Shown here: piece by piece, positions 5,936 through 59,196 of the stretch | Layout of the letters: each line of letters begins with the position of its first letter | How positions within the stretch are numbered: position 1 is the stretch's first letter | Origin: Alphaproteobacteria bacterium | GTDB taxonomy: Bacteria; Pseudomonadota; Alphaproteobacteria; Rs-D84 | DNA length: 64,000 bases | Reading direction: 5' to 3' | Assembly: GCA_017503725.1 (NCBI GenBank) | Contig: JAFVSL010000003.1 | Location: forward strand, 6,236-70,235 | The notes under the pieces: model-generated | Told to the model about the DNA's origin: nothing | The model's database searches: none | Seen by the model: only the letters and a program-made list of their open reading frames with translations | Program-made: the position numbers and the translations under genes

Positions 5936-5946
5936 TGGTGGTGATT

Positions 5947-34975: not shown

Positions 34976-35455
34976 TTATTCCATCGCACACGCATCTGTA
35001 AATTCATATATGCCGGTGTCATCGGTATACGACTCGCCCGCGGGCGCGTACATTATGCAATCCCCGGATGGGCTTGACACCAAACACGATTCCGCCGTGC
35101 CAATGGCGATTGTGCCACTGGGGCAACTGGTTGCAAGGGTGATATATGGCCTGTCAATCGCGATATATCCCGCTGGACAATCCGTACTGGGCACATTACC
35201 CAAAATACACACACCGGCGTCACCGCATTTGAATCCACTGGCACAGGGTGGCACACCGGTGTAAACCGTCAGTGTGCTACTGGTACAGGTCTGTCCCAGT
35301 GTTGCCGCCGCCACACAGGTTGCCAGTGATAGACTACTCGTTCGCAAACATACCCCAGAATCACATTGCGTACTGTATAAACAATTTTGACCATTTGCGA
35401 GCCCTGCAATCGCGGATAACGGCGCCAGAGACATTAAAAATATCAATCGCTTCAT
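34976..35455 (-). CDS. secreted cysteine-rich protein with C-terminal G-E-x-Y-x-D-D-T-G...C module (159 aa)
   Basis: ATG 35455 with an aaggg SD 8 nt upstream (the track ORF begins at GTG 35464). Signal peptide MKRLIFLMSLAPLSAIAG. 15 Cys in the mature part. C-terminus CIMYAPAGESYTDDTGIYEFTDACAME. Starts 11 nt after the stop of the upstream gene. Confidence 0.75.
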   Translation of the reverse strand: MKRLIFLMSLAPLSAIAGLANGQNCLYSTQCDSGVCLRTSSLSLATCVAAATLGQTCTSSTLTVYTGVPPCASGFKCGDAGVCILGNVPSTDCPAGYIAIDRPYITLATSCPSGTIAIGTAESCLVSSPSGDCIMYAPAGESYTDDTGIYEFTDACAME

Positions 35456-35466
35456 TCGCGCCACCC

Positions 35467-35916
35467 TTAGTTTGATATTGAGCTAAACAGCGCGGACCGG
35501 AACTCGGGATAGTACTGAGCGTGCGTCGCACAATTGCCCGAACAGTAGAACGCGCAATTACTGGCGGGCGTGTATATGTTGGTGTATACCCAAGACGAAA
35601 CGGCCGGTTCAACCATCTTGCACCAGCAATAAAAATTGACTTCACTTGAGGCGTCGCTTAGCGTTGGTAATGCGCCGTCTGAATATATTGCATAATCCGT
35701 ATCGCCCTTTACATTAGAACACGCCGAAACTCCCTTAATCGGGACGTTGGTACCATCGGTGGTACAAGTTACCTCCCATTCGGCCGTACCATTCCAGTTG
35801 ACTGGCGTTGATGTACACGTGGTGGTTGATGAATCCAATGCCACGCATTGTTGTACCGCCATTGCGGGCACGGCAAGCAACGTGCCGACTGCGGTTAAGG
35901 TTAAAAGTTTTTTCAT
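35467..35916 (-). CDS. secreted cysteine-rich protein, 'YC[WF]C' family (149 aa)
   Basis: ATG 35916 with a gggag SD (the track ORF begins 13 codons upstream). Signal peptide MKKLLTLTAVGTLLAVPAMA. Core FYCWCKMVEPAVSSWVYT...CAFYCSGNCA. Confidence 0.75.
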   Translation of the reverse strand: MKKLLTLTAVGTLLAVPAMAVQQCVALDSSTTTCTSTPVNWNGTAEWEVTCTTDGTNVPIKGVSACSNVKGDTDYAIYSDGALPTLSDASSEVNFYCWCKMVEPAVSSWVYTNIYTPASNCAFYCSGNCATHAQYYPEFRSALFSSISN

Positions 35917-36161
35917 ATGTATCACTCCCTTTCTTTGTTCTTCGCGAAAAAACAAAAACCACCGAAAACTTTCGAGTGGTCAGGAGGTTAGAAACAATCT
36001 TGTGAATTGTGTGCTTATTCAATATATTCGCAACCCTCCTGACACTAATGTGCTCAGGAGTTTTATTTCATCAAAACACGACACGCCGGCAATTTACCAT
36101 TGCGTCATCTTTTAATGCACAAGTCGGGTTTCTACACCCCATTATGGCAAATCGCCATAAC
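35917..36161 (-). promoter_or_regulatory. conserved ~245-nt 5' leader (candidate cis-regulatory RNA) of cassette 2
   Basis: Mirror of 18191-18422:
- palindrome TTATGGCGATTTGCCATAA (36142-36160)
- 23-codon uORF (36071-36142)
- CTCCTGA/TCAGGAG helix with a different loop
- the same 40-nt invariant core
- AACCTCCTG
- hairpin plus T-run (about 35949-35980). Confidence 0.6.
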
Positions 36162-36196: not shown

Positions 36197-36454
36197 TTGC
36201 AATGATAAATAAAAGTTTATCGCAGGAAGTACGAACAGAATTTTTTGCAAAAAAATTCTGTCATCCCGTGGCTTGACCACGGGACCCAGGTCATATTTCT
36301 TTTTTTATTTGCTTTCACCTGGATTCCGGGGTCAAGCCCCGGAATGACAAAAACGTTAAACGTTTTTGTAAACTGATTACCCCACTAAACTTTTATTTAA
36401 CGAAGTAATATTATGTATGCCAACACTAATCACTAACCACTTACGGCTCACCAC

Positions 36455-36480
36455 TAAAAAATCCCCCAAACGGGGGATTT
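36455..36480 (-). terminator. rho-independent terminator after the giant gene
   Basis: The minus strand reads aaatcccccgtttgggggatttttt directly after the stop at 36484. Confidence 0.85.
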
Positions 36481-36483: not shown

Positions 36484-39400
36484 TTACCAAGACATATATC
36501 CGGGGTTACATTTACGTTCGCACTTTTTCGTGTCTGGATTCCATATCATTGTTCCGGTTTCGTCTTCGTATTCTTCACCAACTGGACAAATTGGAACGCA
36601 CTCATTATTTTCAAGGTTATACAATTCTCCCTGGTACATACAGGCCGCAATCGTACATCCTTCAATATAACTGCTTGCCGCGTCTTGCCCCAGTACGCTT
36701 TTGGCATTGCGACAGCGTCCACATTGTTTGTTTGGTTCGTCTGATTCATATGAATCATTTGTATATCCGGGTTCGCACGACGTTGCGATACATTCGCCCC
36801 ACGTGCCGCGATTTTCATCCCATTCACGTGTTCCCGTACCGTGTTCAACCGAGCACACCTCTACATCCGGGACACAGGCATTTGATGAAACGTGATATCC
36901 ATCAACGCATTCTGTAATCTTGCAGATTCCAAATGCGCCCAACTTGTTGTCCCACGTCTGACTGGCCGCATATGCGTTTGGTGCCGTGCAAGTTTTTACG
37001 TCATCTGCGCACTGGTCGCCCTCTGGATGGAATCCTGTATGACATTTCGCCACCAGACAGTTTCCATTTGGTTTGTACGCGGTTGCATTGGCGCGTTCAC
37101 ATCTCTGACAACGACCATCAATCAATTCATAGTCTGGATTACAAGATGTTTCAACGCACGTCTCGTATCCCTTGATTGTCTGAATTTCGCACGGATTTCC
37201 CGTCTCAGACATTCCCTTGAATGTACAAACATTGTCGTACTGTACGGTGTCACTGTCGCGTATTGCCATACCGCCCAAGATTTCGTAATCTTCACACGTT
37301 GTATAGCATTGTTCAATCTTGGTTGAACCCGCACCGGACAATTTATGTGTGCCACCCGTTAATTCATCACAGGTCATTGGTACGCCATCTGGGGTACCGT
37401 CTAAATCAATATCCGACCCAGACATTGCATCACAAACACTGTTTTCTGGGCACAATTCACATTGTGATTTATCCCCCGCCAGATAGTATCTTGTATCACA
37501 TACCTGAATTTCACAAGTGTCTGTCATATCCGCACCCTGATAGTCGCGGCCAACCATTGTTGTGACGTTGATCGGCGCATCACAGTCGCCAAAGCATTGT
37601 CCCACATTGGTCGAACCCGCATCTGATTCTGGGTAACGCCCATCAAACAGCGCGCTACACACCTGTGGTTCAGCATTCGCGACACCGTCAAATCCTGTAC
37701 GTGTGGATTCATCACAAATACTGCCGGCTGGACAAATATCACACTGATTATTATTGATGTAATATTTTTCATCACACGTATCCAACATACACGCCGTGCA
37801 ATCGGACGAATAATCTTCTGCATTCGTGTTGTATCCACAGGTCTTAATTCCGCCACCGTGTGCAACAGAGCAGGGCATTTCAGTCATAAAGCACGCGGAT
37901 GCATCACTGCTGGTGTCTGATTCTGTTTGTCCCGCGCGACCGTCAAATGTTGCACAACCCTGGCGTGCTGTTGGGCGTCCCTCGTTACCCGCATCTGCAA
38001 CCGGCCCAAAGAAGCCATAGCCAACCTTGGTACAATCCGTATCGCCAATCGCATTCCAATAGTATCCTGGGTCACACTTCTGGAACATACGCGCACGACA
38101 TTCCGTGTATCCTTTGTTCTCGGGCGAATAGATACAGTATTGGAATCCAGAACCGTGATCTGATGTGAATGGATTTTCCGCCTTGAAGCACGATGTAGAT
38201 TCCGCAGCATTATCGACGTTTGTGTCACCACCGTCTGGACATGGCGTTCTGTTCAAACTGCCTGGTTCACTGTACGCATCATATCCAACCGCCGTACAAT
38301 CAATTGCCGCCGCATTTTCACGATAGTATCCACCCTGGCACGTTGTTATATACTTGTCACGACAATTGGTCGCATACTTCGCACTGCCGTCTGCATTGTC
38401 GGACGTGTAATTACATACCTGGGTACCCGCGCCGTATGTCGCGTTGTATTCAACGGTCTTGTAACATTCACCGGCATCATCTGCGGTCGTCAGTGTGCCC
38501 GTCAACCCATTTTCTGGACACTCATAACGTTTCAGGTCATCTGTACCACTGTAATGGTTTATACCAACCTCGACACAGTCTATACCAGATACATAATAGT
38601 ATCCCGCAACACATTTCTTGACCGAATGGTCGCGACAGGAGGCATCATATGCCTTTGTGTCTTCATCATAGTTACACGTTTGTGTCCCACTGGCCTTGCC
38701 GGTTGTGGACGTGTATGCCAACCCTTGCTTATAGCATACACCACTGTTGGTCGCGCTTGCGCCACCGGCCGATATGCCACCATCTGGGCAAATTTCGTGA
38801 CCGCCAACGACACCCGTATCTGTTGGGTATGTTCCGCCCGGACACCAGTGATCGGCTGCACAAACAACACAATCTCCGCCCCGGCCTGGGTAATAATATC
38901 CAGCCTCACAGACCGTGTCGCCTTCGGACCAAACAACATTTGCGGTTGTATCGTTTGTTGTCACACGCAGGGCCGCATTTGTATTTTGCAAAGTACCCGC
39001 CGCATCAATAATCATAACGTCGCCGACGCTGTAACCCGCAAAGTTGTATCCAGATTTACCGGGCAGGGCACTCGTATCTATTGTTGTTAATGCCTTGTTT
39101 GCCGCTACATCTTCGAACCAGCCCACCGTGTATTTCAAATATACTGGTTTTTGTGTTGCGTTTTCTGTGGCATCACTTGCCACCAATTCAATTTTGAATA
39201 CATCTGGTTCCCAAATGGCGTACAGTTTTGTATCGCTACCGTTGGCCGAGATGTTTTCAGATGTTGCGACATTCGCGGCATAGCACGCACCCGAACCGTT
39301 CGCATTGGTGCACCATTTGTTCGCAGACACATATCCCGCACGTGCCAGTCCATCCGTCGCTGGTAACTTACAGGCGCCACTGTCAAATGTGCATTCGACA

Positions 39401-42400
39401 TATGCTGTAACATCGCCTGTGCCCTGGTTTTTATCCAGCGTAACCGTATATTTATTCGCGACACATTGCGGATTTGTGCCGTTTTTCGCAGTATAACCCG
39501 CATTGCACGTAATTGTATAAGAACAGGCTGCGTATTCAGCACTGGCCGTGTTGTATGGCGCGTTGGCTTCGTCTGGTGTTACAGTCTTGCTGTTTGTGAT
39601 GTCTGACGTTGTCAAAGAACAGGCACTGTAACAATCCGCCTCTGTTGCACGTGGCGCATTAGAACCGATTCCGTCATTTGCCGCACCGGTTTCGCCTGGA
39701 CAGGCGTGCGCGGCCATACTTTCTGTGTCCTCGGTCCCGTTTTCTACAACCGGTGCCGGACTGTAATATCCATCTGTTACCGGCGTACATGCGTTGCCAA
39801 CACCGCTATAGTAATAGCCCGCATCACACGTCAGCGCAATAGAGTCACAGTTTGTTGTGTATATTGCACTATTACCGCTACCACTTGTATACCAACAATC
39901 CCACTTTGCGGTACCAAAGTTGAATGTCATATCACCCCCATCGGTTGTAACCTTGCGACAGTCTGATATGCTGTCCGCACCAGCGGTGGTTGTTGCACCA
40001 TTCGCCGGACAAGTTTCCATACAACCGGTCGAGCCTTCGTTAATTTCGCCACTGCCCGGGCAATATTTTCCCAATTCACAGCGTGTACGCACACCGTTGT
40101 TGTAATAATATCCGGCCTCGCACGCAACCATATTCTGGTCCCAAATCGCATACAGGGTAATTTCACCACCATCCGACAGCAGGTTTTTAATACTGCCGTT
40201 TGCGACAATGGTTTTTCCTTTGCCGTCTTTCTGGGTATTCCAGACACTGAATGTCTTGTTCGGCATTTCAATTGTATCAGCGGCTGCACATTCCATATCA
40301 TACACGCATGTAACATCCGCAACATTCAGGCTTCCTGCATCTGTCGGATCAAAATGCACCGTAAATGTTGTTGGTGTCCAGTTTGCAACAACGGTTATGT
40401 GACCTGTTGTGCCCGCAACAATTTCATTGTTTTCAACCTTGTCACCGGTCCAACCATCAAAGATATAGCCCGTTTTTACAGGATCCTTTAATGCAATTGG
40501 CGTATCTGATATTGTATAAGCATCCGGATTTTCGGCATTGTTGGTACCGCCGTCCAAATCATATGTAATCACATACGAATCAGAAGTCCAGTTCGCAGTC
40601 AGAACCATATCGCCGATTGAACCATTTATAATCTGTGTAACCGTATTGCCATTTGCGTCGGTCCACTTGCTGAAAGTAAACCCTGTTTTTTCTGGTTTCT
40701 TTAAAACGATAGTGTTTGTTTCAACAGTGTACTCATCTGGGTTAGATTCACCGGTCTTATAAGTCCCGCCATTAAGATTGTATGTAATCTTATAGGTAAC
40801 AGGTGTCCACTTTGCCCAGAATTCTTTGTTGCCGATTGTGCCTGCTGAAATCTCGGTAACACTTGTGTTGAAACCGCTGTCGCTGAACCAGCCACCAAAA
40901 TCATAACCACGTTTTGTTGGATTGGATAACACAAATGCATCTTCAATTGTATATGTTTCTGGGTTTGAATTGCCCGCATAATATCCGCCATTCAAGTTGT
41001 ATTTGATGGTATACGAATTTGGCGTCCACTGTGCAACAAGCGTTATGTCTGCCGTATACGTGTTATTTGCAGGCAACAGACCATCTGTGCCGATAACAAG
41101 TGTACCCTTGCTATCATAATAGCCCATAAATGTATAACCATTGCGTGTAGGCAATACAATCGATTCCAAGGACGCACCACCGGCGGCATTGTCATACCAG
41201 CCAACCGTATATGTTTGATAAACGGTGCCCTGACCACCAACGCCGTTATTATCATTCAGCGTAACCGCATATGTGCCCGGTGTACATGATGCAACATCCG
41301 ATGCCGTCATTGGTGAACCATACAATGTTTTTCTATAACCATATTGAACCGCAGACGTCGTATTTGCAACATATCCAGCATCACAAACAAATGTAAACGA
41401 ACAGAAAGAGGTTGGTGTACAAACCGTCTGTGGATACCAACGATATCCCTTGTTAGGCAATGTACCTTCTGTACACGTGGCGTGTTCTGGACAGTGGTTT
41501 ATATTGCCAGACACTTCTCCTTGCTCATTTATAACATAATCGTTCGCATAATCACACGTTGGTGCACAGGCATCATAACAAGCATTTGGACCATTCTGTA
41601 TCGAAGCCATAGAAGAATAGTTATAAAAGTCAACGGGTTCCAAACTCTCGCACGTTGCGCTGCAGGTTGGATATTCTTCAGACATGTAATAGCCCGATTT
41701 ACACACGGTTTGTGAAGAATATAAATCAACCGGACACGCTGTGCTAGATACAACACACTCTTCTGAATCGTAATACTGTACGCCGGACAACTTTGTGTCA
41801 GAAAGAAATTCGCATTTTAAGAAATTTCCTGGACAACTGCTTGGTACTACACAGCTTATCTCACAAGTCTTGTAACACTGTTGTTCGGCGTCGCCGGCAA
41901 CACAAATATTGTAAGTGCCCTGATATTCGGCGCCCAGCGCAGAACACGACGTTGTACAACTTGAGCATACGCCATTGCTTGGGTATGTGCCACTTGCGCA
42001 ACCACAGGCACCATCTTCAGTGCTGTTGCACGCATTCCATTGTGCGGTAAAGGTCAGACTGGCCGTACAGGTGCCCTTTGTGACTGATGTGACCGTCGCA
42101 CCCGTGTCATCCTTCCATCCTGCAAATGTATAACCCGCGCGTGCAATGTTATCAGCCGTCGGCAGGGCAAACGTATCCGTATCCGCATTACACGACAACA
42201 TATAGTCACCGCTCCATTTTGTGTCGTCTGGGGTTACGTATGTGATGGTCTTTGCCCCTTCGGCAACATATTCTGCGGTAAATGTTTTTCCACTTGTATA
42301 AGTCCATAGAAAATCTGTTCCCGCGGTGTGAATTGTTGTCCCGTCATTCCAGTGGCTGAAATCATAACCAACTGGTTCGGTGCAAGTATTTGTCGCCGGT

Positions 42401-45400
42401 GCAAAGCCCGTATTATAGATTGCCGTTGCATTTGCCGGTGCGGTACCCGTTCCGTCGCCACAATTGTATGTAACGGTATAGGACTTTGGAGTACATACAC
42501 AGGACAAGCCGGTGCATTTTGGTGTTTCGTAACCCGTGGCGCATTCCGCACTTGCCACACAGGTGTTATTAGAAACACTGACCGAACACGTTGATACACC
42601 GGTACCCTTGGTGCAATCTGCACACTTGGTCCATTTTGCGGTGAACGACATTTCGGATACACACGTGCCCGCCGCAACAGATGTTGCCTTTTCCCCCGTT
42701 GCGTCGTTGTACCATCCATCAAATGTATGACCAGCGCGTGTAATTGTTGGCAATGTGATATCGCCCGACATAACGTTACATTCTGTGTCACTGACCGTTG
42801 TTCCACCGTTTTCATTAAATGTAACATTGTTCATACCGCCAACAGCCCACTGGGCATATAGTGTCGTTGCCTTTGCAATATCCCAGGTGCGTGCCGATTG
42901 ACCCACCGCAGTATAGTACTGTGTGCCACCCGTCTTGGCATCAAACCAACCTGTGAACACGTATCCAGCCTTTGTTGGTGCGGTCGCACTGATTGCCGGC
43001 ATTGTGCTGTCATACGTTGCTAAAACATCTGCTGACTGACCGCCTGTACCACCATTTGCGTCAAACGATATTGTGTACTGGTTCGCCGTCTTACAGGCAT
43101 AGTATGTGCTGTTTGACGGTGTTGTAAACGTGCTTACCTTAGCGGTACAGGATTGGGATGTTCCCCAACCGCCTGTAAATGTATATCCGGTCTGTGTCAG
43201 GACAGATGCATCACCAAAATTACAATCTGCACCCTGGTAACAGGTCACAGATGCGCCAAGCGAACCGGCCCCGCCATTTTTATCCAGCGTTATCACGCGA
43301 TAACAGTCGGATGATGAATCGTGGTCTGCCGCTGTTGTGCCGGTGATGGTATATCCAGTCGTACAACTGTTTGCGCAACTGGTTGCAGACGAACCGTTTG
43401 TGATCTGGTATTTACCTGTTCCACATACAACGCACGACAGGGTTGCGCCATTCACATATGCACCGGCTTTGGCTGTAACAGATGTAACAGTTGGCACACA
43501 CGCGGTCTCGGTTGTAATGCCATAAAAGTCTTTATAATTGCAAGACGCCCATGTCGCACTGTGACAGTTTGTTGGGATATTGCCCTTGGTAACCGTTACA
43601 AGATTATAACAATCTTCTTTTGCATCAGCCCCCAGTTCACTGTCCGGATATTCCGTCGGACAGGTCCCAGTAATCCCCTGATTAACAGAGGTGCTATATG
43701 TGTATTCACCACCACCACAGTAACTGTCTTCTGGACAGGATTCACACTGTGTTTTTAACATTGGCAAATATTCGCCTTTGTCACACGTATATTTGTTGGC
43801 GGTCCATTGTGCGGCCAGTGTCGTGTTCCCCACCGTTGTATAGGTGTATTCGGTGTTCGCCTTTGGGTACTTGCCGTTCCAACCCGTAAATGTATATCCC
43901 GTACGGGCACACATAGCCCCTGGCTGGGTTGTGAATTTATCGTCAAATGTCACCGTTTGTGTATTGCTGTATGGGGTTTGAGTATTGCCACCATTACAAT
44001 TATAAGTGACTGTATATTCATTTGGGGTTAATTTACCATAGACCGTGATATTTCCCGTGCCAGATGTCTTTGTAATTCTGTTGTTGTATGCGGCATCATT
44101 AAACCAACCGCCAAACGTATATCCGGCTTTGGATGCGTCTGTGAACGTCACAGGCGATTCGACCGTATAGGTTGTAGCATTGCTGTGTGTCGCACCATCA
44201 GCGATTTTATATGTAATTGTATATGATACTGCATCACCCCAAATTGCATATAGCGAAACGCTGCCATTATTATTGGTTGTCAGGTTGGAAACGCTTTCTT
44301 TGTCTGAATATTCAACATTGCCATCACTGCTGCGTGCCCATCCCTGGAATTTTAGACCGTCTTTTGTAAACTTGTTTTCGCTCAGATTTTGTGCAACACC
44401 ATATGTAAATGACTGGCTGCTCATTGTGCCCGAACCGGTATTTGCATTAAACGTAACCGTATATTTATTTGGTGTAGCGGAACATTTGCTTACGTTGTTA
44501 CTGGACGTGCCACAGGTTGCTGTATTATATCCTGCCGACGCGGTTGCTGTTGCGGTACCACAGATGCCCAACGGTGCACTTGGTGTACAGGATGCAACAC
44601 CTGTTCCCCGGTCACAGGTACACTCTGCGCCCCAGACTGCGTACAAATTAACCTTGGCGCCGTCTACACTGCTCAGGTTTGATACACTTTGTTTGTTGGC
44701 GTATTTGGCACTGCTTGCGCCACTGGTTTCGGCCCAACCCAAGAACTGTTTCGCGCCATTTGTGAATCCATTTGTGGACAAGGTGTCCGACTTGTTGTAT
44801 GTGTGCGTGCTGGTTGCGGTTGTTCCAGAACCACCATTTGCATTATATACAATCGTATATGTAATCGGATCACAACTTGGGTTATACGCTCCGGAATTTG
44901 AGATGTCCTTGTACCCGGTTGCACAGTTGGTTGCATAAGAACACTGGTTATTCACGACACTTAACACACAGGTCGCACCCGTTCCCTCTGCACACGCTGT
45001 ACAGGCGCTCCACACCGCATACAGTGTCTTTTCACCACTTGTGATAATATTTTTGATACTTGCGCCCGGCGCGTATTCGGCCACCGTTGCATTGTTTGTC
45101 GATGCCCAACCTTGGAAAGTACTGTTGGTCTTCAACATTGTACCCTGGCTTGTCGCCAAACAGGTCCCATTATAAGAACAGTTCTGCGAACTGACCGCTG
45201 GTACGCCAGAGGTTGCGCCGTTTGTATCATATTTAATGGTTATCGAATTTGCAGAACACGCATAATTATAAGATGTAGAACCAACCGTGCCCGTGTATGT
45301 CCCGCTGGTCCCATAGCCATTGTTACAAGTAACTGTACATTTTGGTGCGTTTGTCGTTGTGTTCGCTGGTTTCGCGGTTCCATTATCAGCACTGCAAGTT

Positions 45401-46608
45401 GGTGTTTCCCAAACTGCGTATACAGTTGTGGTCGCCTTGAATGTCAAAGCAGTGCTGCCACTTGTGGCGTCGTTTGATGTGGCCCATCCTTTGAATATCT
45501 TTGCGCCATTGCTAAGCCCGCAAGAAGATGCGTTCCACGATGGTAATGTGCAGGCCTTATTATAGTAACACGTTGCCGAACCATCAGATGTGCTGGATGT
45601 ACCACCACAGGTGCCCGACCCACCATTTTTATTTAATGTAATTGTGAAATAACAGTCATTTTCTGTTTTTGCGCTTGTTGCACTGGTACCCGCCGGACAT
45701 ATTGTCAGACCCGCATCAACACCGCTGTTTGACCCGGCTACGCCCTTGCAATAATTGCCGGCCGTACACTGTGCACATTTCGCTGTATCTGCATCCCAAT
45801 ATGTACCGGCCTCACAATCATATGTGCTACCACCCCAAATCGCATAAAGTTTTACATTGTCTGCCGGTGTGTATTCGCCGGTGCTGCCGCTTGTGGCGGT
45901 GCTTGATGTGGCCCAGCCATTAAAGATATATCCGGCGCGTTCAGGGGTTGGCATTGTTACGGGTACTCCCGTCCATTGGGCATACAACGTTAAATTTTTT
46001 GAGGTTGCTTTGATTTGTGTTGTTCCGGCGTCTGTTATATATCCAGTTGCACCAACAAGTTGTGTGCCACCCGTTGCCGCAGTGAAATATCCATTAAATG
46101 TGTACGTGGCAGTTTGGGATGTTGTGGCAACTGTACCACCGTTTGCATCATATGTAATTGTATATGAACGCTTTGGTACGGTAATTGGGTTCGCAGATGT
46201 GGTCATAACCTTTGTGCGCGCGGCGTCCAAATACACATTTGTTCCATATTTCCCATAGATTTTAGTTGTGCCGGCGGTTGTCGCACTTGTGTTATTCAAA
46301 GTAATAGTTGTTTCAATTAGCGAACAAGCTGTTGTTGTGGTAGTGGTTGCCCCCGTTGTGGTGCCACCAACACTGTATCCGGTTGAACACGTACAGGCCG
46401 ACGCCGAATTTTCATCGGTCGTAGAGGAATTTTCTGGACACGCCACACAGGAATTTCCGACCTCGGTTCCATTCAGATAATACCCTGCATTACAGGACGT
46501 ATACATCTTGATATCGTCACAGATGTATCCCGCCGCAAACGAATTCGTTGTGAAAACGACACCCGCAAATAATACAAAAAACCTCAGGAAACAGCGTATT
46601 TTTCCCAT
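36484..46608 (-). CDS. giant secreted cysteine-rich mosaic protein (3,374 aa): Listeria/Bacteroides-type B-repeat modules plus CxxGYY cysteine-rich repeats; putative surface adhesin/host-interaction protein
   Basis: Uninterrupted 10.1-kb frame. ATG 46608 with a gagaggaag SD. Signal peptide MGKIRCFLRFFVLFAGVVFTTNSFA.
- About 19 modules resemble YT[VI]T[FY]xxNGG....GY.F.GW......[LF][YT]A.W (Flg_new/InlB B-repeat-like), spanning roughly 40140-46100.
- A Cys-rich insert lies at about 41350-42030.
- The C-terminal region 36484-40140 is dominated by C-x-[AGP]-G-Y-Y...C...G-x-Y repeats resembling ephrin-receptor-like/GCC2_GCC3/VSP-type modules. Confidence 0.85.
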   Translation of the reverse strand: MGKIRCFLRFFVLFAGVVFTTNSFAAGYICDDIKMYTSCNAGYYLNGTEVGNSCVACPENSSTTDENSASACTCSTGYSVGGTTTGATTTTTTACSLIETTITLNNTSATTAGTTKIYGKYGTNVYLDAARTKVMTTSANPITVPKRSYTITYDANGGTVATTSQTATYTFNGYFTAATGGTQLVGATGYITDAGTTQIKATSKNLTLYAQWTGVPVTMPTPERAGYIFNGWATSSTATSGSTGEYTPADNVKLYAIWGGSTYDCEAGTYWDADTAKCAQCTAGNYCKGVAGSNSGVDAGLTICPAGTSATSAKTENDCYFTITLNKNGGSGTCGGTSSTSDGSATCYYNKACTLPSWNASSCGLSNGAKIFKGWATSNDATSGSTALTFKATTTVYAVWETPTCSADNGTAKPANTTTNAPKCTVTCNNGYGTSGTYTGTVGSTSYNYACSANSITIKYDTNGATSGVPAVSSQNCSYNGTCLATSQGTMLKTNSTFQGWASTNNATVAEYAPGASIKNIITSGEKTLYAVWSACTACAEGTGATCVLSVVNNQCSYATNCATGYKDISNSGAYNPSCDPITYTIVYNANGGSGTTATSTHTYNKSDTLSTNGFTNGAKQFLGWAETSGASSAKYANKQSVSNLSSVDGAKVNLYAVWGAECTCDRGTGVASCTPSAPLGICGTATATASAGYNTATCGTSSNNVSKCSATPNKYTVTFNANTGSGTMSSQSFTYGVAQNLSENKFTKDGLKFQGWARSSDGNVEYSDKESVSNLTTNNNGSVSLYAIWGDAVSYTITYKIADGATHSNATTYTVESPVTFTDASKAGYTFGGWFNDAAYNNRITKTSGTGNITVYGKLTPNEYTVTYNCNGGNTQTPYSNTQTVTFDDKFTTQPGAMCARTGYTFTGWNGKYPKANTEYTYTTVGNTTLAAQWTANKYTCDKGEYLPMLKTQCESCPEDSYCGGGEYTYSTSVNQGITGTCPTEYPDSELGADAKEDCYNLVTVTKGNIPTNCHSATWASCNYKDFYGITTETACVPTVTSVTAKAGAYVNGATLSCVVCGTGKYQITNGSSATSCANSCTTGYTITGTTAADHDSSSDCYRVITLDKNGGAGSLGASVTCYQGADCNFGDASVLTQTGYTFTGGWGTSQSCTAKVSTFTTPSNSTYYACKTANQYTISFDANGGTGGQSADVLATYDSTMPAISATAPTKAGYVFTGWFDAKTGGTQYYTAVGQSARTWDIAKATTLYAQWAVGGMNNVTFNENGGTTVSDTECNVMSGDITLPTITRAGHTFDGWYNDATGEKATSVAAGTCVSEMSFTAKWTKCADCTKGTGVSTCSVSVSNNTCVASAECATGYETPKCTGLSCVCTPKSYTVTYNCGDGTGTAPANATAIYNTGFAPATNTCTEPVGYDFSHWNDGTTIHTAGTDFLWTYTSGKTFTAEYVAEGAKTITYVTPDDTKWSGDYMLSCNADTDTFALPTADNIARAGYTFAGWKDDTGATVTSVTKGTCTASLTFTAQWNACNSTEDGACGCASGTYPSNGVCSSCTTSCSALGAEYQGTYNICVAGDAEQQCYKTCEISCVVPSSCPGNFLKCEFLSDTKLSGVQYYDSEECVVSSTACPVDLYSSQTVCKSGYYMSEEYPTCSATCESLEPVDFYNYSSMASIQNGPNACYDACAPTCDYANDYVINEQGEVSGNINHCPEHATCTEGTLPNKGYRWYPQTVCTPTSFCSFTFVCDAGYVANTTSAVQYGYRKTLYGSPMTASDVASCTPGTYAVTLNDNNGVGGQGTVYQTYTVGWYDNAAGGASLESIVLPTRNGYTFMGYYDSKGTLVIGTDGLLPANNTYTADITLVAQWTPNSYTIKYNLNGGYYAGNSNPETYTIEDAFVLSNPTKRGYDFGGWFSDSGFNTSVTEISAGTIGNKEFWAKWTPVTYKITYNLNGGTYKTGESNPDEYTVETNTIVLKKPEKTGFTFSKWTDANGNTVTQIINGSIGDMVLTANWTSDSYVITYDLDGGTNNAENPDAYTISDTPIALKDPVKTGYIFDGWTGDKVENNEIVAGTTGHITVVANWTPTTFTVHFDPTDAGSLNVADVTCVYDMECAAADTIEMPNKTFSVWNTQKDGKGKTIVANGSIKNLLSDGGEITLYAIWDQNMVACEAGYYYNNGVRTRCELGKYCPGSGEINEGSTGCMETCPANGATTTAGADSISDCRKVTTDGGDMTFNFGTAKWDCWYTSGSGNSAIYTTNCDSIALTCDAGYYYSGVGNACTPVTDGYYSPAPVVENGTEDTESMAAHACPGETGAANDGIGSNAPRATEADCYSACSLTTSDITNSKTVTPDEANAPYNTASAEYAACSYTITCNAGYTAKNGTNPQCVANKYTVTLDKNQGTGDVTAYVECTFDSGACKLPATDGLARAGYVSANKWCTNANGSGACYAANVATSENISANGSDTKLYAIWEPDVFKIELVASDATENATQKPVYLKYTVGWFEDVAANKALTTIDTSALPGKSGYNFAGYSVGDVMIIDAAGTLQNTNAALRVTTNDTTANVVWSEGDTVCEAGYYYPGRGGDCVVCAADHWCPGGTYPTDTGVVGGHEICPDGGISAGGASATNSGVCYKQGLAYTSTTGKASGTQTCNYDEDTKAYDASCRDHSVKKCVAGYYYVSGIDCVEVGINHYSGTDDLKRYECPENGLTGTLTTADDAGECYKTVEYNATYGAGTQVCNYTSDNADGSAKYATNCRDKYITTCQGGYYRENAAAIDCTAVGYDAYSEPGSLNRTPCPDGGDTNVDNAAESTSCFKAENPFTSDHGSGFQYCIYSPENKGYTECRARMFQKCDPGYYWNAIGDTDCTKVGYGFFGPVADAGNEGRPTARQGCATFDGRAGQTESDTSSDASACFMTEMPCSVAHGGGIKTCGYNTNAEDYSSDCTACMLDTCDEKYYINNNQCDICPAGSICDESTRTGFDGVANAEPQVCSALFDGRYPESDAGSTNVGQCFGDCDAPINVTTMVGRDYQGADMTDTCEIQVCDTRYYLAGDKSQCELCPENSVCDAMSGSDIDLDGTPDGVPMTCDELTGGTHKLSGAGSTKIEQCYTTCEDYEILGGMAIRDSDTVQYDNVCTFKGMSETGNPCEIQTIKGYETCVETSCNPDYELIDGRCQRCERANATAYKPNGNCLVAKCHTGFHPEGDQCADDVKTCTAPNAYAASQTWDNKLGAFGICKITECVDGYHVSSNACVPDVEVCSVEHGTGTREWDENRGTWGECIATSCEPGYTNDSYESDEPNKQCGRCRNAKSVLGQDAASSYIEGCTIAACMYQGELYNLENNECVPICPVGEEYEDETGTMIWNPDTKKCERKCNPGYMSW

Positions 46609-46741
46609 ATCTTCCTCTCTTTTGTCTTTTATGGTAGTAAAAATGCGCCATATCGCGCAAGGGGAAATATTAAAAATCAATTTAAAAAATATATTTGACG
46701 CATTTTTGGTGCTTGACTTTTTATAAAAGTGTATTTTTTTG

Positions 46742-46772
46742 TAAAAAAAGTCCCAGCCGGATGGCTGGGACT
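46742..46772 (-). terminator. rho-independent terminator after tRNA-Met
   Basis: gtcccagcc-ggat-ggctgggac hairpin followed (minus strand) by a T-run. Confidence 0.8.
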
Positions 46773-46777: not shown

Positions 46778-46853
46778 TGGTGGGTTAGGTAGGACTTGAA
46801 CCCACGACCAAAGCGTTATGAGCGCTCCGCTCTAACCACTGAGCTACTAACCC
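46778..46853 (-). tRNA. tRNA with CAT anticodon (elongator Met or Ile2-lysidine type), CCA encoded
   Basis: Minus strand: acceptor GGGTTAG/CTAACCC, D arm TAGC..., anticodon stem GAGCG/CGCTT with loop CTCATAA, T arm GTGGG-TTCAAGT-CCTAC, then ACCA. It lacks the three G-C pairs of initiator tRNA. TTGCAC-N16-TATAAT promoter just upstream (about 46865-46893). Confidence 0.85.
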
Positions 46854-46937: not shown

Positions 46938-48221
46938 ATGGGTCTGATTGCACCGATTTTAAATGATGTTCAGATATCTGCGTTTAATGCGATTGAACGC
47001 ACAAATTCTAATATTCTTATCCTGGGCCAGGCGGGAACGGGCAAATCTACATTTGTGAATTATTTAAAGTCTGCATCGAAAAAACGTATCGTTTGTGCGT
47101 GTCCAACGGCGGTGTCGGCGTTAAATATCGGTGGCCAAACGATTCATTCCCTGTTTCAGATTCAGCCACGCGATTTCATTATGCCCGAATTGTTAAAATT
47201 AAAGGCAAAGCCACGCAATATCCTAAATGCCACGGATGTGTTAATTATAGACGAGATTTCAATGGTTGCGCCCGATTTACTGGACGCAATTGATATCTTG
47301 GCACGTATGGCGCGTCACAACAATGCCCCCTTTGGCGGGATTCAGGTTGTTGCCATCGGGGATTTGTTCCAATTACCCCCGGTTATAACGCGTGAAGCAA
47401 TGTCTTACTATGAATCCGCGTACGAACATCCAAATTCTTATTTCTTTGACAGCAACGTTTATAAGCGTGCTAATTTTATTCGGTTCAGTTTTGATATGGT
47501 TTATCGTCAAAATGATGGGGCGCTATTGGAAAATCTGACCAGGCTGCGTAATCGCAATATCGATGCACTAAATTTCTTTAACGATTGCAAGATAGAAGAT
47601 GCCGAACGTCGTGCAAATGCTGTTTTAATAACACCGTTTCGTGACACGGCCGAACGAATAAATTCGTCGCGCCTGGCCCAAATTGATGCGCCGGAAATAG
47701 TATATACCGGAACATTGTCTGGAACATTTTCAGAACGCGATGTCCCTGCGCCATTGAACCTTACGTTAAAGGTTGGTGCGTTGGTTGTTTTTGTGAAAAA
47801 TGGCGACAAATGGCACAATGGTTCAATGGGGATTGTGCGCGCAATGTCTGCGCGTGACATAACCGTACAATTGTTGTCTGATAATCGTGAAATTGTATCG
47901 GTAAAACCTGAAAAGTGGGAAAAGATAGAATATTCCCGTGATGAAAACGATAGAATTGTCGAAAACGAAGTAGGGGGATATAAACAATTTCCGCTGAATC
48001 TGGGGTATGCAATGACCATACACAAGGCCCAGGGAAAAACACTGGATGCGGTTGTTGTAGATATGTCGCGTGGCGCATTCGCCCACGGTCAGACTTATGT
48101 TGCGTTGTCCCGCACACGTGCGGCCACCGATATGCATATTTCGTCGCCCCTGCGACCACGCGATGTTATTTTTGATGATCGTGTACTTGAATTTGTGGGG
48201 ATCGATATGCCACACGCATAA
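46938..48221 (+). CDS. PIF1/RecD-like superfamily 1 DNA helicase
   Basis: Walker A GQAGTGKST, Walker B LIIDEISMV, then GDLFQLPPV, TIHKAQGKTLD and YVALSRTR motifs in the order typical of Pif1-family helicases. Confidence 0.8.
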   Translation: MGLIAPILNDVQISAFNAIERTNSNILILGQAGTGKSTFVNYLKSASKKRIVCACPTAVSALNIGGQTIHSLFQIQPRDFIMPELLKLKAKPRNILNATDVLIIDEISMVAPDLLDAIDILARMARHNNAPFGGIQVVAIGDLFQLPPVITREAMSYYESAYEHPNSYFFDSNVYKRANFIRFSFDMVYRQNDGALLENLTRLRNRNIDALNFFNDCKIEDAERRANAVLITPFRDTAERINSSRLAQIDAPEIVYTGTLSGTFSERDVPAPLNLTLKVGALVVFVKNGDKWHNGSMGIVRAMSARDITVQLLSDNREIVSVKPEKWEKIEYSRDENDRIVENEVGGYKQFPLNLGYAMTIHKAQGKTLDAVVVDMSRGAFAHGQTYVALSRTRAATDMHISSPLRPRDVIFDDRVLEFVGIDMPHA

Positions 48222-49230
48222 AATCTTGTGCATTTTGTGTCAAATCGGAAAACTTAACGCCACGACCTGTAATTAGATTGGTTGGGATTGGTTTACGCTC
48301 AATCGCCGCCAATACAGATTTAACAACTGCATTTCGTTCGGCGGCGAACAAGATTTTACCCGATTTGCTGATTTTATATGGGCTTTTTTCACCCAGGTCA
48401 AATGTTGAATGTTCGTCCGTTTCGGCATCGGGCATTTCGTTCCGAACGTTTGGAACAATCAATGTGCGCGTATTTTCTATGTACATTGGGTTAACCCTTT
48501 CGGCATTTTCCAGAAAAACCGCATCTATCATATTGTTATTGCGCAGGACCGCATCGTGTATCGACATAAAAGATACGCTGGTTGTCTTCAATTGCGATAA
48601 TGGCGCCAACGGTTCGTGATTTATCGTAACAATATTCTTCAAGAATAAATCAATTTCCGCCTGCGTATAACCCGCGTTTAGCATCGCCTGTTGCAGCATA
48701 CGCTGCAACATCAACAATGTTGATGTGCCTTGGCAATGCGTAAAGAAAATCGCATTGCGCGCATATTGGATGGCGGTGTTTATATCGTGACGACGACCGT
48801 ATTGATTGACGATGCGTGGCTTAAATATGTGTTCAAACAAAATTTGTACGAAAACAGGTTTTGTTTCAAATTTATCAACGGTTGCGATTTGCTGGGCACG
48901 CTTTGTGTTATCTGCGTCCAGTTCTATAACATTGCGTCCCGCCGCGCGAAACAGTTCCGCCCGATCGTGCGATGGCACACGTGAACCAAATGCATAGAAC
49001 GTCGAATATAAATCAATGCCTTTGATGTCATTTTGTCTTAAAATCTCGCGAATATATCGTCCGTAGAATCGTGCTTTGTATTCGTCAATTGTTTCTTCGC
49101 CGCCCAGTGCAAATATAGCCAGTTTACCAACCGGTATTTGCGATGGGTTGCGAATAAACTCGTTGTCATTTACCGATTTAGGAACAATTTTTATAATCTG
49201 CGCGCTGCTGCGCTGAAAAGACTGATTCAT
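48166..49230 (-). CDS. hypothetical protein, paralogue A of a tandem pair (HC-x-G motif)
   Basis: 354 aa, alignable with the 49244-50266 product: ALGGEETIDEYKARFYG / ILGGGVTTDEKRASGYI; IFFTHCQGTSTL / IFYNHCHGAVAL; NHEPLAPL / QHNPVGPL; both end ..HQK. The 3' end overlaps the helicase 3' end by 56 nt (convergent). Confidence 0.65.
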   Translation of the reverse strand: MNQSFQRSSAQIIKIVPKSVNDNEFIRNPSQIPVGKLAIFALGGEETIDEYKARFYGRYIREILRQNDIKGIDLYSTFYAFGSRVPSHDRAELFRAAGRNVIELDADNTKRAQQIATVDKFETKPVFVQILFEHIFKPRIVNQYGRRHDINTAIQYARNAIFFTHCQGTSTLLMLQRMLQQAMLNAGYTQAEIDLFLKNIVTINHEPLAPLSQLKTTSVSFMSIHDAVLRNNNMIDAVFLENAERVNPMYIENTRTLIVPNVRNEMPDAETDEHSTFDLGEKSPYKISKSGKILFAAERNAVVKSVLAAIERKPIPTNLITGRGVKFSDLTQNAQDFMRVAYRSPQIQVHDHQK

Positions 49231-54424: not shown

Positions 54425-54430
54425 CCCAAG

Positions 54431-54459
54431 ATTATAGTCTTTTACACTGGAAATTGCAA
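54431..54459 (-). promoter_or_regulatory. sigma70 promoter TTGCAA-N17-TATAAT for ssrA
   Basis: -35 at 54454-54459 and -10 at 54431-54436 on the minus strand. Confidence 0.75.
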
Positions 54460-59195: not shown

Positions 59196-59196
59196 T

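What the first reader, a model, noticed from the sequence alone, without database searches (positions are those of the whole stretch)
36484..46608. 10.1-kb gene encoding a 3,374-aa mosaic of bacterial B-repeat modules and eukaryote-like CxxGYY cysteine repeats
One uninterrupted frame with a good SD and a Sec signal peptide.

The N-terminal two thirds carry about 19 modules by my count of [LF][YT]A.W ends. They follow the pattern YT[VI]T[FY]..NGG...GY.F.GW...LYA.W, i.e. the Listeria/Bacteroides 'Flg_new'/InlB B-repeat type.

The C-terminal roughly 1,200 aa are dense in repeats such as CEAGYYYNNGVRTRCELGKYCPG, CVAGYYYVSGIDCVEVGINHYSG and CDPGYYWNAIGDTDCTKVGYGFFG. These resemble ephrin-receptor-like/GCC2_GCC3 or protist VSP-type cysteine modules that are mostly eukaryotic.

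The protein ends in ...GYMSW, an aromatic terminus, but I see no beta-barrel, LPXTG, RTX or T9SS signal. Its export or anchoring route in a diderm is therefore unexplained. Such a fusion in an alphaproteobacterial housekeeping neighbourhood suggests host mimicry or adhesion.
Basis: partly seen in the sequence, partly recalled or inferred. Interest (0 to 1): 0.8.

Follow-up and report, generated by a model that had tools for sequence, protein, structure and literature searches.

The report
Giant cysteine-rich surface protein of Enterousia
The 10.1-kb gene is real and encodes a 352-kDa exported repeat protein that takes up about 1% of the tiny genome of an uncultured gut alphaproteobacterium (Candidatus Enterousia), and it is probably the cell's main contact fibre, although how it crosses the outer membrane is still unknown.

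Summary
Window 36484-46608 (-) is one intact ORF of 3,374 aa with a strong SD and a Sec signal peptide, in a housekeeping neighbourhood. The organism is a Candidatus Enterousia (order Rs-D84), a lineage with genomes under 1 Mb.

Pfam confirms Flg_new/InlB B-repeats: 14 stretches by Pfam, about 19-20 by my own HMM. The Cys-rich repeats are real, but they are interleaved along the whole protein rather than confined to the C-terminus.

The dominant unit is a roughly 91-aa composite module with 6 invariant Cys. Its first half is a remote relative of Ephrin_rec_like (PF07699). It scores below Pfam's cutoff, but hhalign gives 85% probability and its profile retrieves bona fide PF07699 proteins. Its second half, and the last 225 aa (the CTD), match nothing known.

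The gene belongs to a lineage-wide family with at least 150 loci. Members share a promoter, a signal peptide, a C-terminal block and a terminal G[YF]xxW. The middle region varies in length and is swapped as cassettes.

dN/dS is 0.02-0.3, and Cys counts are even in 38 of 47 mature proteins, which points to a functional, disulfide-bonded protein.

The best reading is a surface adhesin or coat fibre. Transfer from eukaryotes is not supported, and the route across the outer membrane is unresolved.

The parts
46631..46660 (-). Conserved sigma-70-type promoter: -35 TTGCGC (46660-46655) and -10 TACCAT (46636-46631), preceded by a T-rich tract
   Evidence: Read from the sequence. The CTTGC and TTTTT-CTA..AT blocks are at least 90% conserved in an alignment of 50 upstream regions of family members from other species. 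The consensus scan did not list it. The 5-bp hairpin that scan reported at 46659-46644 lies in the non-conserved spacer.
46611..46620 (-). Shine-Dalgarno region AGAGAGGAAG
   Evidence: AAAAGAGAGGAAG is at least 90% conserved across 50 family members.
36484..46608 (-). Coding sequence of 3,374 aa plus the stop codon. The mature protein is about 352 kDa, acidic, has 184 Cys and is 14% Thr.
   Evidence: dN/dS against the orthologue in L005 is 0.18 overall.
46534..46608 (-). Sec-type signal peptide (aa 1-25), predicted cleavage NSFA|AG
   Evidence: Read from the sequence. The MGK.R.FLGF...N[AS]FA|AGY.C pattern is conserved in 47 full-length relatives. A signal peptidase I gene lies in the window at 23991-24944.
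46309..46533 (-). Conserved mature N-terminus (AGYxC..Y.SCNAGYYLNG) with the first Ephrin_rec_like-like Cys module, followed by a Thr-rich linker
   Evidence: PF07699, 15.1 bits, sub-threshold.
40141..46167 (-). Variable stalk (aa 148-2156): 18 Flg_new/InlB B-repeats with Cys-rich linkers between them (aa 259-318, 401-454, 534-582, 660-714, 936-1101, 1327-1375, 1525-1778)
   Evidence: Identity to distant orthologues is only 20-40%. dN/dS is 0.12-0.32.
41036..41903 (-). Cassette (aa ~1569-1858) replaced by unrelated sequence in the closest relative, L005
   Evidence: The blastn alignment between the window and L005 has a gap here, while the flanks are 86-90% identical. dS is saturated. The same stretch is 66-74% identical to L007 and L008.
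39508..40122 (-). Composite Cys modules M1-M2 (aa 2163-2367), divergent copies
   Evidence: PF07699 scores 17.6 bits on aa ~2166-2217.
38929..39453 (-). Two Flg_new-type repeats inside the conserved C-terminal block (aa 2386-2466 and the divergent 2470-2560)
37777..38910 (-). Four canonical ~91-aa composite modules, M3-M6 (aa 2567-2944). Each has 6 invariant Cys: an Ephrin_rec_like-like hairpin half plus a three-stranded beta-sheet half.
   Evidence: AF2 model of M4 has pLDDT 90. hhalign result. The block of four is conserved in most relatives.
37162..37776 (-). Variant modules M7-M8 (aa 2945-3149) with CxxC-type hairpins
   Evidence: conserved in homologues.
36487..37161 (-). C-terminal domain (aa 3150-3374): 22 invariant Cys in units of about 45 aa, ending in GYMSW-COOH. 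It is the most conserved part of the family.
   Evidence: Alignment A2. It was found in 74 protein clusters and 152 genomic stretches. It has no PDB sequence hit. The AF2 model has pLDDT 75 and is all beta-hairpins, with no significant fold match. It is kept in family members from 597 aa to more than 3,500 aa.
36463..36477 (-). Intrinsic terminator directly after the stop codon

Best explanation
This is the intact local member of a lineage-wide family of giant extracytoplasmic fibre proteins of Candidatus Enterousia and related Rs-D84 alphaproteobacteria. These are uncultured, mostly gut-derived bacteria with genomes under 1 Mb that are suspected to depend on a partner organism.

**Shown**
- The gene has a conserved promoter and a strong RBS.
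- The product has a cleavable Sec signal peptide and no other hydrophobic segment.
- It consists of a length-variable, fast-evolving stalk of Flg_new (InlB B-repeat) domains interleaved with Cys-rich hairpin modules, which is exchanged as cassettes.
- A conserved C-terminal block of about 1,200 aa follows. It is built of ~91-aa composite modules, each an Ephrin_rec_like-like half plus an unmatched beta-sheet half.
- The protein ends in an unmatched 225-aa Cys-rich domain that terminates in G[YF]xxW-COOH.
- The whole gene is under purifying selection. Cysteines come in even numbers.

**Inferred**
- After Sec export and signal peptidase I cleavage, the chain is oxidatively folded into a rigid, protease-resistant, disulfide-stapled rod.
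- The rod is displayed on the cell surface.
- The invariant C-terminal block serves as the cell-proximal anchor, or as a conserved binding head.
- The variable N-terminal two thirds form the exposed, diversifying part.
- The function is contact or adhesion to gut surfaces or to a partner cell.
- The step across the outer membrane is not explained by any known signal.
For: **The gene is real and selected**
- The ORF is intact.
- There are no near-identical internal DNA repeats.
- 47 relatives with an in-locus start were found in other assemblies, 938-3,404 aa long.
- dN/dS against L005 is 0.18 overall. It is 0.02-0.10 in the C-terminal third and 0.12-0.32 in the N-terminal two thirds.

**Export**
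- The conserved signal peptide has an AXA cleavage site.
- LepB, BamD and MurJ genes lie in the window, and Mla genes lie in related locus L001. This indicates a diderm envelope.
- The only hydrophobic stretch is the signal peptide.

**Disulfides**
- The mature protein has 184 Cys.
- Mature Cys counts are even in 38 of 47 relatives, although the counts range from 70 to 218. The binomial P is 1.2e-5, ignoring relatedness.
- Each module has 6 invariant Cys and the CTD has 22.

**Domains**
- Flg_new.
- Module structure, pLDDT 90.
- Link to Ephrin_rec_like.

**Family-wide conservation**
- Promoter and SD.
- CTD in 74 protein clusters and 152 genomic stretches, almost all from Enterousia or uncultured alphaproteobacterial MAGs.
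- 75 of 80 ORFs end in G[YF]xxW.
- The CTD is retained while total length varies about six-fold.
- Conservation rises from N- to C-terminus, and one cassette is replaced.

**Biological context**
- Enterousia genomes are 0.75-1.0 Mb, lack the TCA cycle, respiration and standard transporters, and are thought to be partner-dependent (PMC12306168).
- Flg_new proteins are regarded as gut adhesin-like proteins (PMC9723798).
Against: - There is no direct evidence of expression, surface localisation or binding.
- No recognised adhesive domain, anchor motif or outer-membrane translocation signal was found.
- The lineage lacks a respiratory chain, so the usual quinone-dependent DsbB route for disulfide formation is doubtful. 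Dsb genes could not be searched for.
- The polarity (which end is proximal to the cell) is inferred only from the conservation pattern.
- No window of the gene shows dN/dS above 1, so diversifying selection is not demonstrated.
Confidence: 0.6

Rival explanations
1. It is a protective surface coat or S-layer-like protein rather than a specific adhesin. In this reading it forms an abundant, Cys-rich, protease-resistant and antigenically variable layer, functionally like the VSP coat of Giardia.
For: - The strongly conserved promoter and strong SD suggest high expression.
- Cassette replacement and several tandem paralogues occur in some genomes.
- The protein is Cys-rich and Thr-rich.
- No dedicated adhesive domain was found.
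Against: - At 352 kDa with a rod-like repeat architecture, it is atypical for lattice-forming S-layer proteins.
- It has only 13 CXXC motifs and no C-terminal membrane anchor, so it is not a VSP.
- The window holds one copy, which limits VSP-style switching.
Confidence: 0.2
2. The Cys-rich modules were acquired from a eukaryote (a gut protist or the host) and act as host mimics.
For: - The module profile hits eukaryotic Ephrin_rec_like or furin-like repeat proteins: Raphidocelis, Mya arenaria PCSK5-like, Carpediemonas and Gefionella.
- One paper states that the domain arose in early eukaryotes (PMC6993872).
Against: - Similar half-modules also occur in a Euryarchaeota MAG, in Tara Oceans proteins and in other metagenome proteins of unidentified origin.
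- Only about 50 aa per module is related, and it scores below Pfam's cutoff.
- The family is conserved across the whole lineage, with its own promoter and partial synteny.
- GC content is only slightly above that of the flanks.
- No specific eukaryotic donor or target stands out.
Confidence: 0.08
3. It is a periplasmic or outer-membrane-tethered structural protein that never reaches the cell surface.
For: - It has a Sec signal but no recognisable outer-membrane translocation signal.
- The paper on this lineage reports no flagella and mentions type IV pili only for another lineage.
Against: - A stalk of about 20 Flg_new domains with the fastest evolution in the N-terminal two thirds fits an exposed protein.
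- A 352-kDa rod is hard to fit in a periplasm.
- Flg_new proteins described elsewhere are treated as surface, adhesin-like proteins.
Confidence: 0.08
4. It is an assembly artefact or a decaying pseudogene.
For: - In two related loci the gene is called as two overlapping ORFs: 2104+1408 aa in L002 and 3092+339 aa in L004.
- Most database relatives are contig-end fragments.
Against: - The frame here is uninterrupted.
- Internal repeats are only 60-80% identical at the DNA level.
- dN/dS is 0.18.
- There are dozens of intact orthologues with the same start and end.
Confidence: 0.02

Closest known systems
Flg_new / InlB B-repeat (PF09479, TIGR02543) adhesin-like proteins of gut bacteria and gut archaea. 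NCBI annotates relatives that share this protein's Cys module as 'InlB B-repeat-containing protein [Alphaproteobacteria bacterium]', e.g. MBR2285905.1 at 4,430 aa.
   Same: - There are 14-20 B-repeats well above the curated cutoffs.
- The source is a gut-associated organism.
- The NCBI-annotated proteins named here match this protein's Cys-module profile very strongly.
   Different: - The B-repeats are interleaved with Cys-rich modules.
- The conserved C-terminal third is not covered by any B-repeat model.
- There is no LRR/internalin domain, LPXTG, GW module, PGF-CTERM or T9SS tail.
Ephrin_rec_like / GCC2_GCC3 (PF07699) furin-like Cys-rich repeats, as in ELAPOR1, PCSK5/SCUBE and the Chlamydomonas mastigoneme protein Mst1
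   Same: - The pattern C..GYY...C..(C)..G.Y......CP.G..T......CY is shared.
- hhalign probability is 85%.
- The weak best PDB sequence and fold hits are ELAPOR1, Mst1 and GPCR Cys-rich domains.
- As in Mst1, the repeats would build an extracellular fibre.
   Different: - The match is below Pfam's gathering score.
- Most copies have lost one Cys pair.
- Each copy is fused to an extra ~40-aa three-stranded sheet that has no match.
Fibrillar adhesins of bacteria: a stalk of tandem domains, an adhesive tip and a cell anchor
   Same: It has a signal peptide, a long stalk of tandem domains, rapid evolution and a variable repeat number.
   Different: - No known adhesive domain and no known anchor were found.
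- It is a Sec-dependent giant in a diderm without a T5SS barrel, TPS domain or RTX/T1SS signal.
Giardia variant-specific surface proteins and other protist Cys-rich coats
   Same: It is a Cys-rich extracellular protein of an anaerobic gut dweller, and the related repeat superfamily is shared (Carpediemonas hit).
   Different: It has only 13 CXXC motifs in 3,374 aa, no C-terminal transmembrane helix or CRGKA tail, and one copy in this window.

Membership tests
Flg_new / List_Bact_rpt repeat proteins (PF09479, TIGR02543) | HMM match above the curated cutoff, in tandem copies | tested here: met
   PF09479 scores 331.9 bits against a cutoff of 27, with 14 stretches. TIGR02543 scores 184.6 against 20.95, with 11 stretches. 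My own HMM finds 19 repeats plus one divergent copy.
Flg_new / List_Bact_rpt repeat proteins (PF09479, TIGR02543) | Beta-grasp-like B-repeat fold | not tested
Ephrin_rec_like (PF07699, formerly GCC2_GCC3) | Pfam HMM score at or above the gathering score of 23.1 bits | tested here: not met
   The whole protein gives no hit at E<=0.1. Fragments score 15.1 bits (aa ~38-75) and 17.6 bits (aa ~2166-2217).
Ephrin_rec_like (PF07699, formerly GCC2_GCC3) | Profile-level homology to bona fide repeats | tested here: met
   hhalign of the first half of the module against 26 repeats from PF07699-positive proteins (25 from Mya arenaria P0199, one from P0154) gives 85% probability, P 6.4e-6, over 43 columns. 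The second half, used as a control, gives 0.2%. The module profile retrieves proteins that score 44-866 bits on PF07699.
Ephrin_rec_like (PF07699, formerly GCC2_GCC3) | Fold match to a solved member | tested here: inconclusive
   The Foldseek top hit is ELAPOR1, with E 1.4, probability 0.51 and TMq 0.41. The PDB sequence-profile hits ELAPOR1, Mst1 and T1R3 CRD have E about 0.2.
Fibrillar adhesins | Secretion signal plus a stalk of tandem repeat domains | tested here: met
Fibrillar adhesins | Recognisable adhesive domain and cell-anchor motif | tested here: not met
   No such Pfam or NCBIfam model hits. There is no C-terminal hydrophobic segment.
Known diderm surface-export classes (T5SS autotransporter or TPS, T1SS RTX adhesin, T9SS CTD) and LPXTG sorting | Beta-barrel or TPS domain; RTX repeats without a Sec signal; Por_Secre_tail; LPXTG plus a transmembrane segment | tested here: not met
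   There are no hits on the whole protein at E<=0.1, or on the Cys-rich N-terminal, middle and C-terminal segments at E<=10. A Sec signal is present. The CTD model is made of beta-hairpins. No hydrophobic segment lies outside the signal peptide.
Giardia-type VSP | Dense CXXC motifs, a C-terminal transmembrane helix and a CRGKA tail | tested here: not met
   There are 13 CXXC motifs in 3,374 aa, no transmembrane segment, and the protein ends in GYMSW.
Enterousia/Rs-D84 giant CTD protein family (defined here) | Conserved promoter and SD, MGK..FLGF signal peptide, ~91-aa composite modules, and a 225-aa CTD ending in G[YF]xxW | tested here: met

The most novel reading that the evidence does not exclude
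The invariant 225-aa Cys-rich C-terminal domain with its strictly terminal G[YF]xxW-COOH could be a new sorting or anchoring signal. It would serve a so far unknown route that takes Sec-exported, disulfide-folded giant proteins to the surface of a minimal diderm. The fibre itself would be the attachment organelle through which these sub-1-Mb alphaproteobacteria hold on to a partner cell, whether a bacterium, a protist or host epithelium.
Probability: 0.2. Interest if true: 0.8.

Novelty: new variant of a known kind. Interest (0 to 1): 0.55.

Why it matters
Candidatus Enterousia and the Rs-D84 order are widespread in human, livestock, bird and termite guts. They have genomes under 1 Mb and lack the usual transporters and respiration, and their way of life is unknown (PMC12306168).

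A single conserved gene that takes about 1.1% of such a genome, and sits behind a near-invariant promoter, is likely to be central to how the cell meets its surroundings. It gives a concrete handle for experiments. Possible uses are antibody or FISH-guided localisation, using the C-terminal block as bait to find a receptor or partner, and use as a strain-typing marker.

It also adds two unmodelled Cys-rich domain types. It is a clear prokaryotic example of Ephrin_rec_like-type repeats used to build a fibre. And it poses an open question about how a heavily disulfide-bonded giant protein gets across an outer membrane.

Tried and rejected
- **Pfam and NCBIfam on the whole protein and on fragments.** Nothing beyond Flg_new and sub-threshold Cys-rich families. 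Hits such as YobH, IMUP, Sushi and cEGF are weak and were dismissed.
- **PDB sequence searches.** The CTD profile gave no hit at E<=10. The module profile gave only E about 0.2. A three-repeat Flg_new stretch gave no hit.
- **Foldseek against PDB.** The CTD model's best hit had E 0.04 with TM 0.14. Local similarities with probability 0.5-0.66 were to R-spondin furin repeats and fibronectin type I modules. The module model's best hit was ELAPOR1 at E 1.4. Neither is significant.
- **Are the CTD units shortened copies of the 91-aa module or of Ephrin_rec_like?** hhalign gives 3% and 0.8%, so this was rejected.
- **Tandem or near-identical DNA repeats that could cause assembly collapse.** None found.
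- **Homopolymer tracts for phase variation.** None of 8 nt or longer, or 7 nt for G/C.
- **A second family member in the window.** None found.
- **A conserved secretion partner next to the gene.** Downstream genes differ between loci. The two small secreted Cys-rich ORFs recur nearby in only about 6 loci, and on the other strand there.
- **OMP beta-signal reading of the terminal Trp.** The last ten residues lack the alternating hydrophobic pattern (read from the sequence), so this was rejected.
- **Positive selection.** No 150-codon window has dN/dS above 1.
- **The leader hairpin plus T-run at 46659-46644 as an attenuator.** It lies in the non-conserved promoter spacer, so this was rejected.
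- **Literature.** No paper found with the terms Enterousia or Rs-D84 describes this protein.
Full report

The mechanical ORF list gives one open frame at 36484..46680 on the minus strand. The ATG at 46608 is preceded by AGAGAGGAAG. It opens a 3,374-aa protein that ends in ...CNPGYMSW, followed by TAA and a GC-rich hairpin with a T-run at 36463-36477. A tRNA-Met gene with its own strong terminator lies just upstream, at 46778-46853 and 46749-46772. The gene therefore looks like a monocistronic unit.

The first 25 residues, MGKIRCFLRFFVLFAGVVFTTNSFA|AG, have the shape of a Sec/SPase I signal. They are the only hydrophobic segment in the protein. The mature chain is about 352 kDa and acidic (337 D+E against 184 K+R). 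It is 14% Thr, 10% Gly and 5.5% Cys.

The gene contains no tandem or near-identical DNA repeats. Its internal repeats are only 61-80% identical at the DNA level. Repeat collapse during assembly is therefore unlikely.

**2. Whose gene is it?**

The flanks are housekeeping genes: rpoD, tmk, rplM, rpsI, tig, dnaK, aminoacyl-tRNA synthetases, obg and lon. The alphaproteobacterial regulator TrcR and a permuted tmRNA are also present. BamD, MurJ and signal peptidase I lie in the window. A related locus carries MlaE/MlaD. The cell therefore has a diderm envelope with peptidoglycan.

A scan of GTDB species representatives with the C-terminal domain returned 152 confirmed stretches. Nearly all come from MAGs named Candidatus Enterousia, or uncultured Alphaproteobacteria or 'Rickettsiales'. 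The named sources are human, chicken and ruminant gut. A few records carry other names (Bacteroides fragilis, Muribaculaceae, Clostridia bins), and some isolate names look non-mammalian. The best match, L005, is an Enterousia MAG about 90% identical in flanking DNA.

According to PMC12306168, Enterousia (order Rs-D84) has genomes of 0.75-1.0 Mb. It has no TCA cycle, no respiratory chain and no standard sugar or amino-acid transporters. A partner-dependent life is suspected. A 10.1-kb gene is about 1.1% of such a genome.

**3. Anatomy**

- **Flg_new repeats.** Pfam PF09479 scores E 3e-101 with 14 stretches. TIGR02543 gives 11 stretches. There are partial matches to the B-repeat region of internalins. 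An HMM built from the protein's own repeats maps 19 copies with i-E below 1e-5, plus one divergent copy at aa 2470-2560.
- **Cys-rich segments.** These sit between the Flg_new repeats along the whole protein: aa 26-100, 259-318, 401-454, 534-582, 660-714, 936-1101, 1327-1375 and 1525-1778. The mosaic therefore runs the whole length rather than splitting into an N-terminal and a C-terminal part.
- **C-terminal third.** In order it contains M1-M2 (2163-2367), two Flg_new-type repeats (2386-2560), four canonical modules M3-M6 (2567-2944), two variants M7-M8 (2945-3149) and a 225-aa C-terminal domain (3150-3374).

**4. The ~91-aa composite module**

An alignment of 21 modules from this protein and its homologues shows six invariant Cys. 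The consensus is CxAGYY...DC..VG.GYYSP....R..CP..G.T.T.TS....CYK.G..Y....G.GTQTC.Y.......Y...C.

AlphaFold2 on this alignment gives pLDDT 90. The model has two short hairpins and a loop, followed by a three-stranded antiparallel sheet.

Pfam's Ephrin_rec_like model (PF07699) matches only below threshold, at 15.1 and 17.6 bits against a cutoff of 23.1. Three independent lines nevertheless link the first ~50 residues to that family:

- The module profile's best, non-significant PDB sequence hits are ELAPOR1, the Chlamydomonas mastigoneme protein Mst1 (deposited as an ephrin-receptor-like domain protein) and the Cys-rich domain of taste receptor T1R3.
- The top Foldseek hit is ELAPOR1, with E 1.4 and probability 0.51.
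- An exhaustive HMMER search of 1.84 billion representatives found 479 proteins. About 60 are giant proteins that match the full module. Many others match only positions 1 to about 52. Some of those sampled are bona fide PF07699 proteins. One is a Mya arenaria PCSK5-like protein with 29 repeats at 866 bits, and another is from Carpediemonas.

A profile-profile comparison of the first half against 26 repeats from PF07699-positive proteins gives 85% probability, P 6e-6. The second half, used as a control, gives 0.2%.

So the first half is a diverged Ephrin_rec_like-type repeat, and most copies have lost one Cys pair. The second half has no detectable relative.

**5. The C-terminal domain**

The last 225 aa are the most conserved part of the protein. 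They are 57-77% identical among homologues that share only 20-40% identity in the N-terminal part. The domain has 22 invariant Cys arranged in units of about 45 aa, for example C.xGYH....C..D...C.....G.G..EW......WG.C.

It has no Pfam, NCBIfam or PDB sequence match. The AF2 model (pLDDT 75) is a string of beta-hairpins with no significant fold match. The best local similarities are to furin-like and fibronectin type I modules. hhalign does not relate its units to the 91-aa module or to Ephrin_rec_like.

Of 80 ORFs that carry the domain, 75 end exactly in G[YF]xxW. The domain is kept in family members from 597 aa to more than 3,500 aa, and some genomes carry two or three tandem members.

**6. 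A lineage-wide family with conserved expression signals**

Forty-seven relatives with an in-locus start share the signal peptide MGK.R.FLGF...N[AS]FA|AGY.C and the mature N-terminal motif ..Y.SCN.GYY.

The 85 nt upstream of 50 family genes align almost without gaps. The blocks with at least 90% conservation are CTTGC (-35), TTTTT-CTA..AT (-10) and AAAAGAGAGGAAG (SD). The spacer is not conserved. In the window these lie at 46660-46655, 46636-46631 and 46620-46611. This suggests strong, constitutive-type expression, which is an inference.

Synteny is partly conserved. The lon-tsaB-rimI-PIF1-like helicase block next to the gene recurs in L003.

NCBI's pipeline names some relatives 'InlB B-repeat-containing protein [Alphaproteobacteria bacterium]', up to 4,430 aa. 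No paper found with the terms Enterousia or Rs-D84 describes them.

**7. Selection and variability**

Against L005, dS is about 0.3-0.8 throughout. dN/dS is 0.12-0.32 in the N-terminal two thirds and 0.02-0.10 in the C-terminal third. The frame is therefore under purifying selection along its whole length, most strongly at the C-terminus.

One segment, aa ~1569-1858 (window 41036-41903), does not align with L005 at the DNA level, although its flanks are 86-90% identical. The same stretch is 66-74% identical to more distant orthologues. This points to cassette exchange by recombination. No window of the gene exceeds dN/dS = 1.

**8. Disulfides**

The mature protein has 184 Cys. Across the 47 relatives the mature Cys counts range from 70 to 218, and 38 of the counts are even. 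The binomial P is 1.2e-5 if relatedness is ignored.

Together with the invariant even Cys sets in the module and the CTD, this argues that cysteines are gained and lost in pairs, meaning that they form disulfides. That fits an extracytoplasmic, oxidatively folded rod.

One caveat is that the lineage lacks a respiratory chain. How disulfides are introduced is therefore unclear, and I could not search whole genomes for Dsb or VKOR.

**9. Most likely mechanism**

The steps below combine what is shown with what is inferred.

1. *Shown:* the precursor has a Sec signal and the cell has SPase I and a BAM component.
2. *Inferred:* the precursor is exported by Sec, cleaved after NSFA, folded with about 90 disulfides and displayed as a long fibre.
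3. *Inferred:* the conservation gradient, and retention of the CTD whatever the stalk length, suggest that the C-terminal block is the constant functional end. It would be either the cell-proximal anchor or a conserved binding head. The N-terminal Flg_new/Cys stalk would be the exposed part that is varied by cassettes.
4. *Inferred:* Flg_new proteins are widely regarded as gut adhesin-like proteins (PMC9723798), and Enterousia is suspected to depend on partners. Contact or adhesion is therefore the best-supported function.
5. *Unexplained:* the step across the outer membrane. There is no barrel, TPS, RTX, T9SS or sortase-type signal. The terminal Trp does not sit in an OMP-type beta-signal.

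**10. Rival explanations**

- **Protective, variable surface coat.** This is hard to separate from an adhesin with these data, and I give it about 0.2.
- **Eukaryote-derived mimicry.** This is not supported. The half-module type also occurs in a Euryarchaeota MAG and in metagenome proteins of unidentified origin. The gene is also old in its lineage.
- **A purely periplasmic role.** This cannot be excluded but fits the data poorly.
- **Artefact or pseudogene.** This is effectively excluded.

**11. Novelty and score**

The kind of protein is known: a giant repeat surface protein with B-repeats. Relatives are already deposited and auto-annotated.

What is new:

- The family definition.
- The composite module that joins an Ephrin_rec_like-type half to an unmatched sheet.
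- The unmatched CTD with an invariant terminal motif.
- The conserved promoter.
- The context of a sub-1-Mb diderm.

I rate it a new variant of a known kind, with interest 0.55.

Noticed in passing
window 34976-35464 (-) and 35467-35955 (-): Two small ORFs with signal peptides lie just downstream of the giant gene. They encode Cys-rich proteins of about 150-160 aa. The first passes Pfam's cutoff for the Colipase N-terminal domain (29.6 against 27 bits), a domain best known from animal pancreatic colipase. Homologues lie within a few kb of the giant gene in about 6 other loci, but on the opposite strand there.
   Followed up: partly
window 36205-36331 and 18022-18147: A palindromic, MITE/REP-like intergenic element occurs twice in the window at 95% identity and in opposite orientation. 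Each copy contains the hairpin TGTCATCCCGTGGCTTGACCACGGGA. One copy sits just downstream of the giant gene's terminator.
   Followed up: partly
window 46611-46660, and the upstream regions of 50 related genes (loci L005-L082): The promoter (-35 CTTGC, T-run, -10 TA..AT) and the SD (AAAAGAGAGGAAG) are nearly invariant across species, while the spacer varies. This is unusually strong conservation for a non-coding stretch.
   Followed up: yes
window 41036-41903 compared with L005 5199-6126: A cassette of about 870 bp inside the gene is replaced by unrelated sequence in the closest relative. It resembles the same stretch in more distant orthologues (L007, L008), which suggests recombinational exchange.
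   Followed up: partly
L002 3690-14227 and L004 726-11020: In two related genomes the family gene next to iPGM is called as two ORFs overlapping by 4 nt (2104+1408 aa and 3092+339 aa). This could be a frameshift, a sequencing error or a real gene fission. It was not resolved.
   Followed up: no
window 9826-10743 (-): A glycosyltransferase matches family GT92 (PF01697, E 6e-27). GT2 and DegT-type sugar genes lie at 58248-60333. These may be relevant to glycosylation of the Thr-rich giant protein.
   Followed up: no
window 54084-54438 (-): A permuted (two-piece) tmRNA gene with tag peptide AANDNVRLAMAA.
   Followed up: no
window 48166-49230 (-), 49244-50266 (-), 5935-7347 (+), 60333-61631 (+), 3141-4124 (+): Several sizeable ORFs (327-470 aa) have no Pfam match at the E-value limits used (0.01, 1e-8 or 1e-6). 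A 338-aa gene sits at the same position as the 340-aa ORF in the syntenic locus L003, but the two were not compared.
   Followed up: no
L033 (CALXLG010000010.1): One locus carries three CTD-bearing genes, including a minimal 597-aa version made of a signal peptide, a Cys-rich segment, one Flg_new repeat and the CTD. This shows that the CTD is the constant element of the family.
   Followed up: partly
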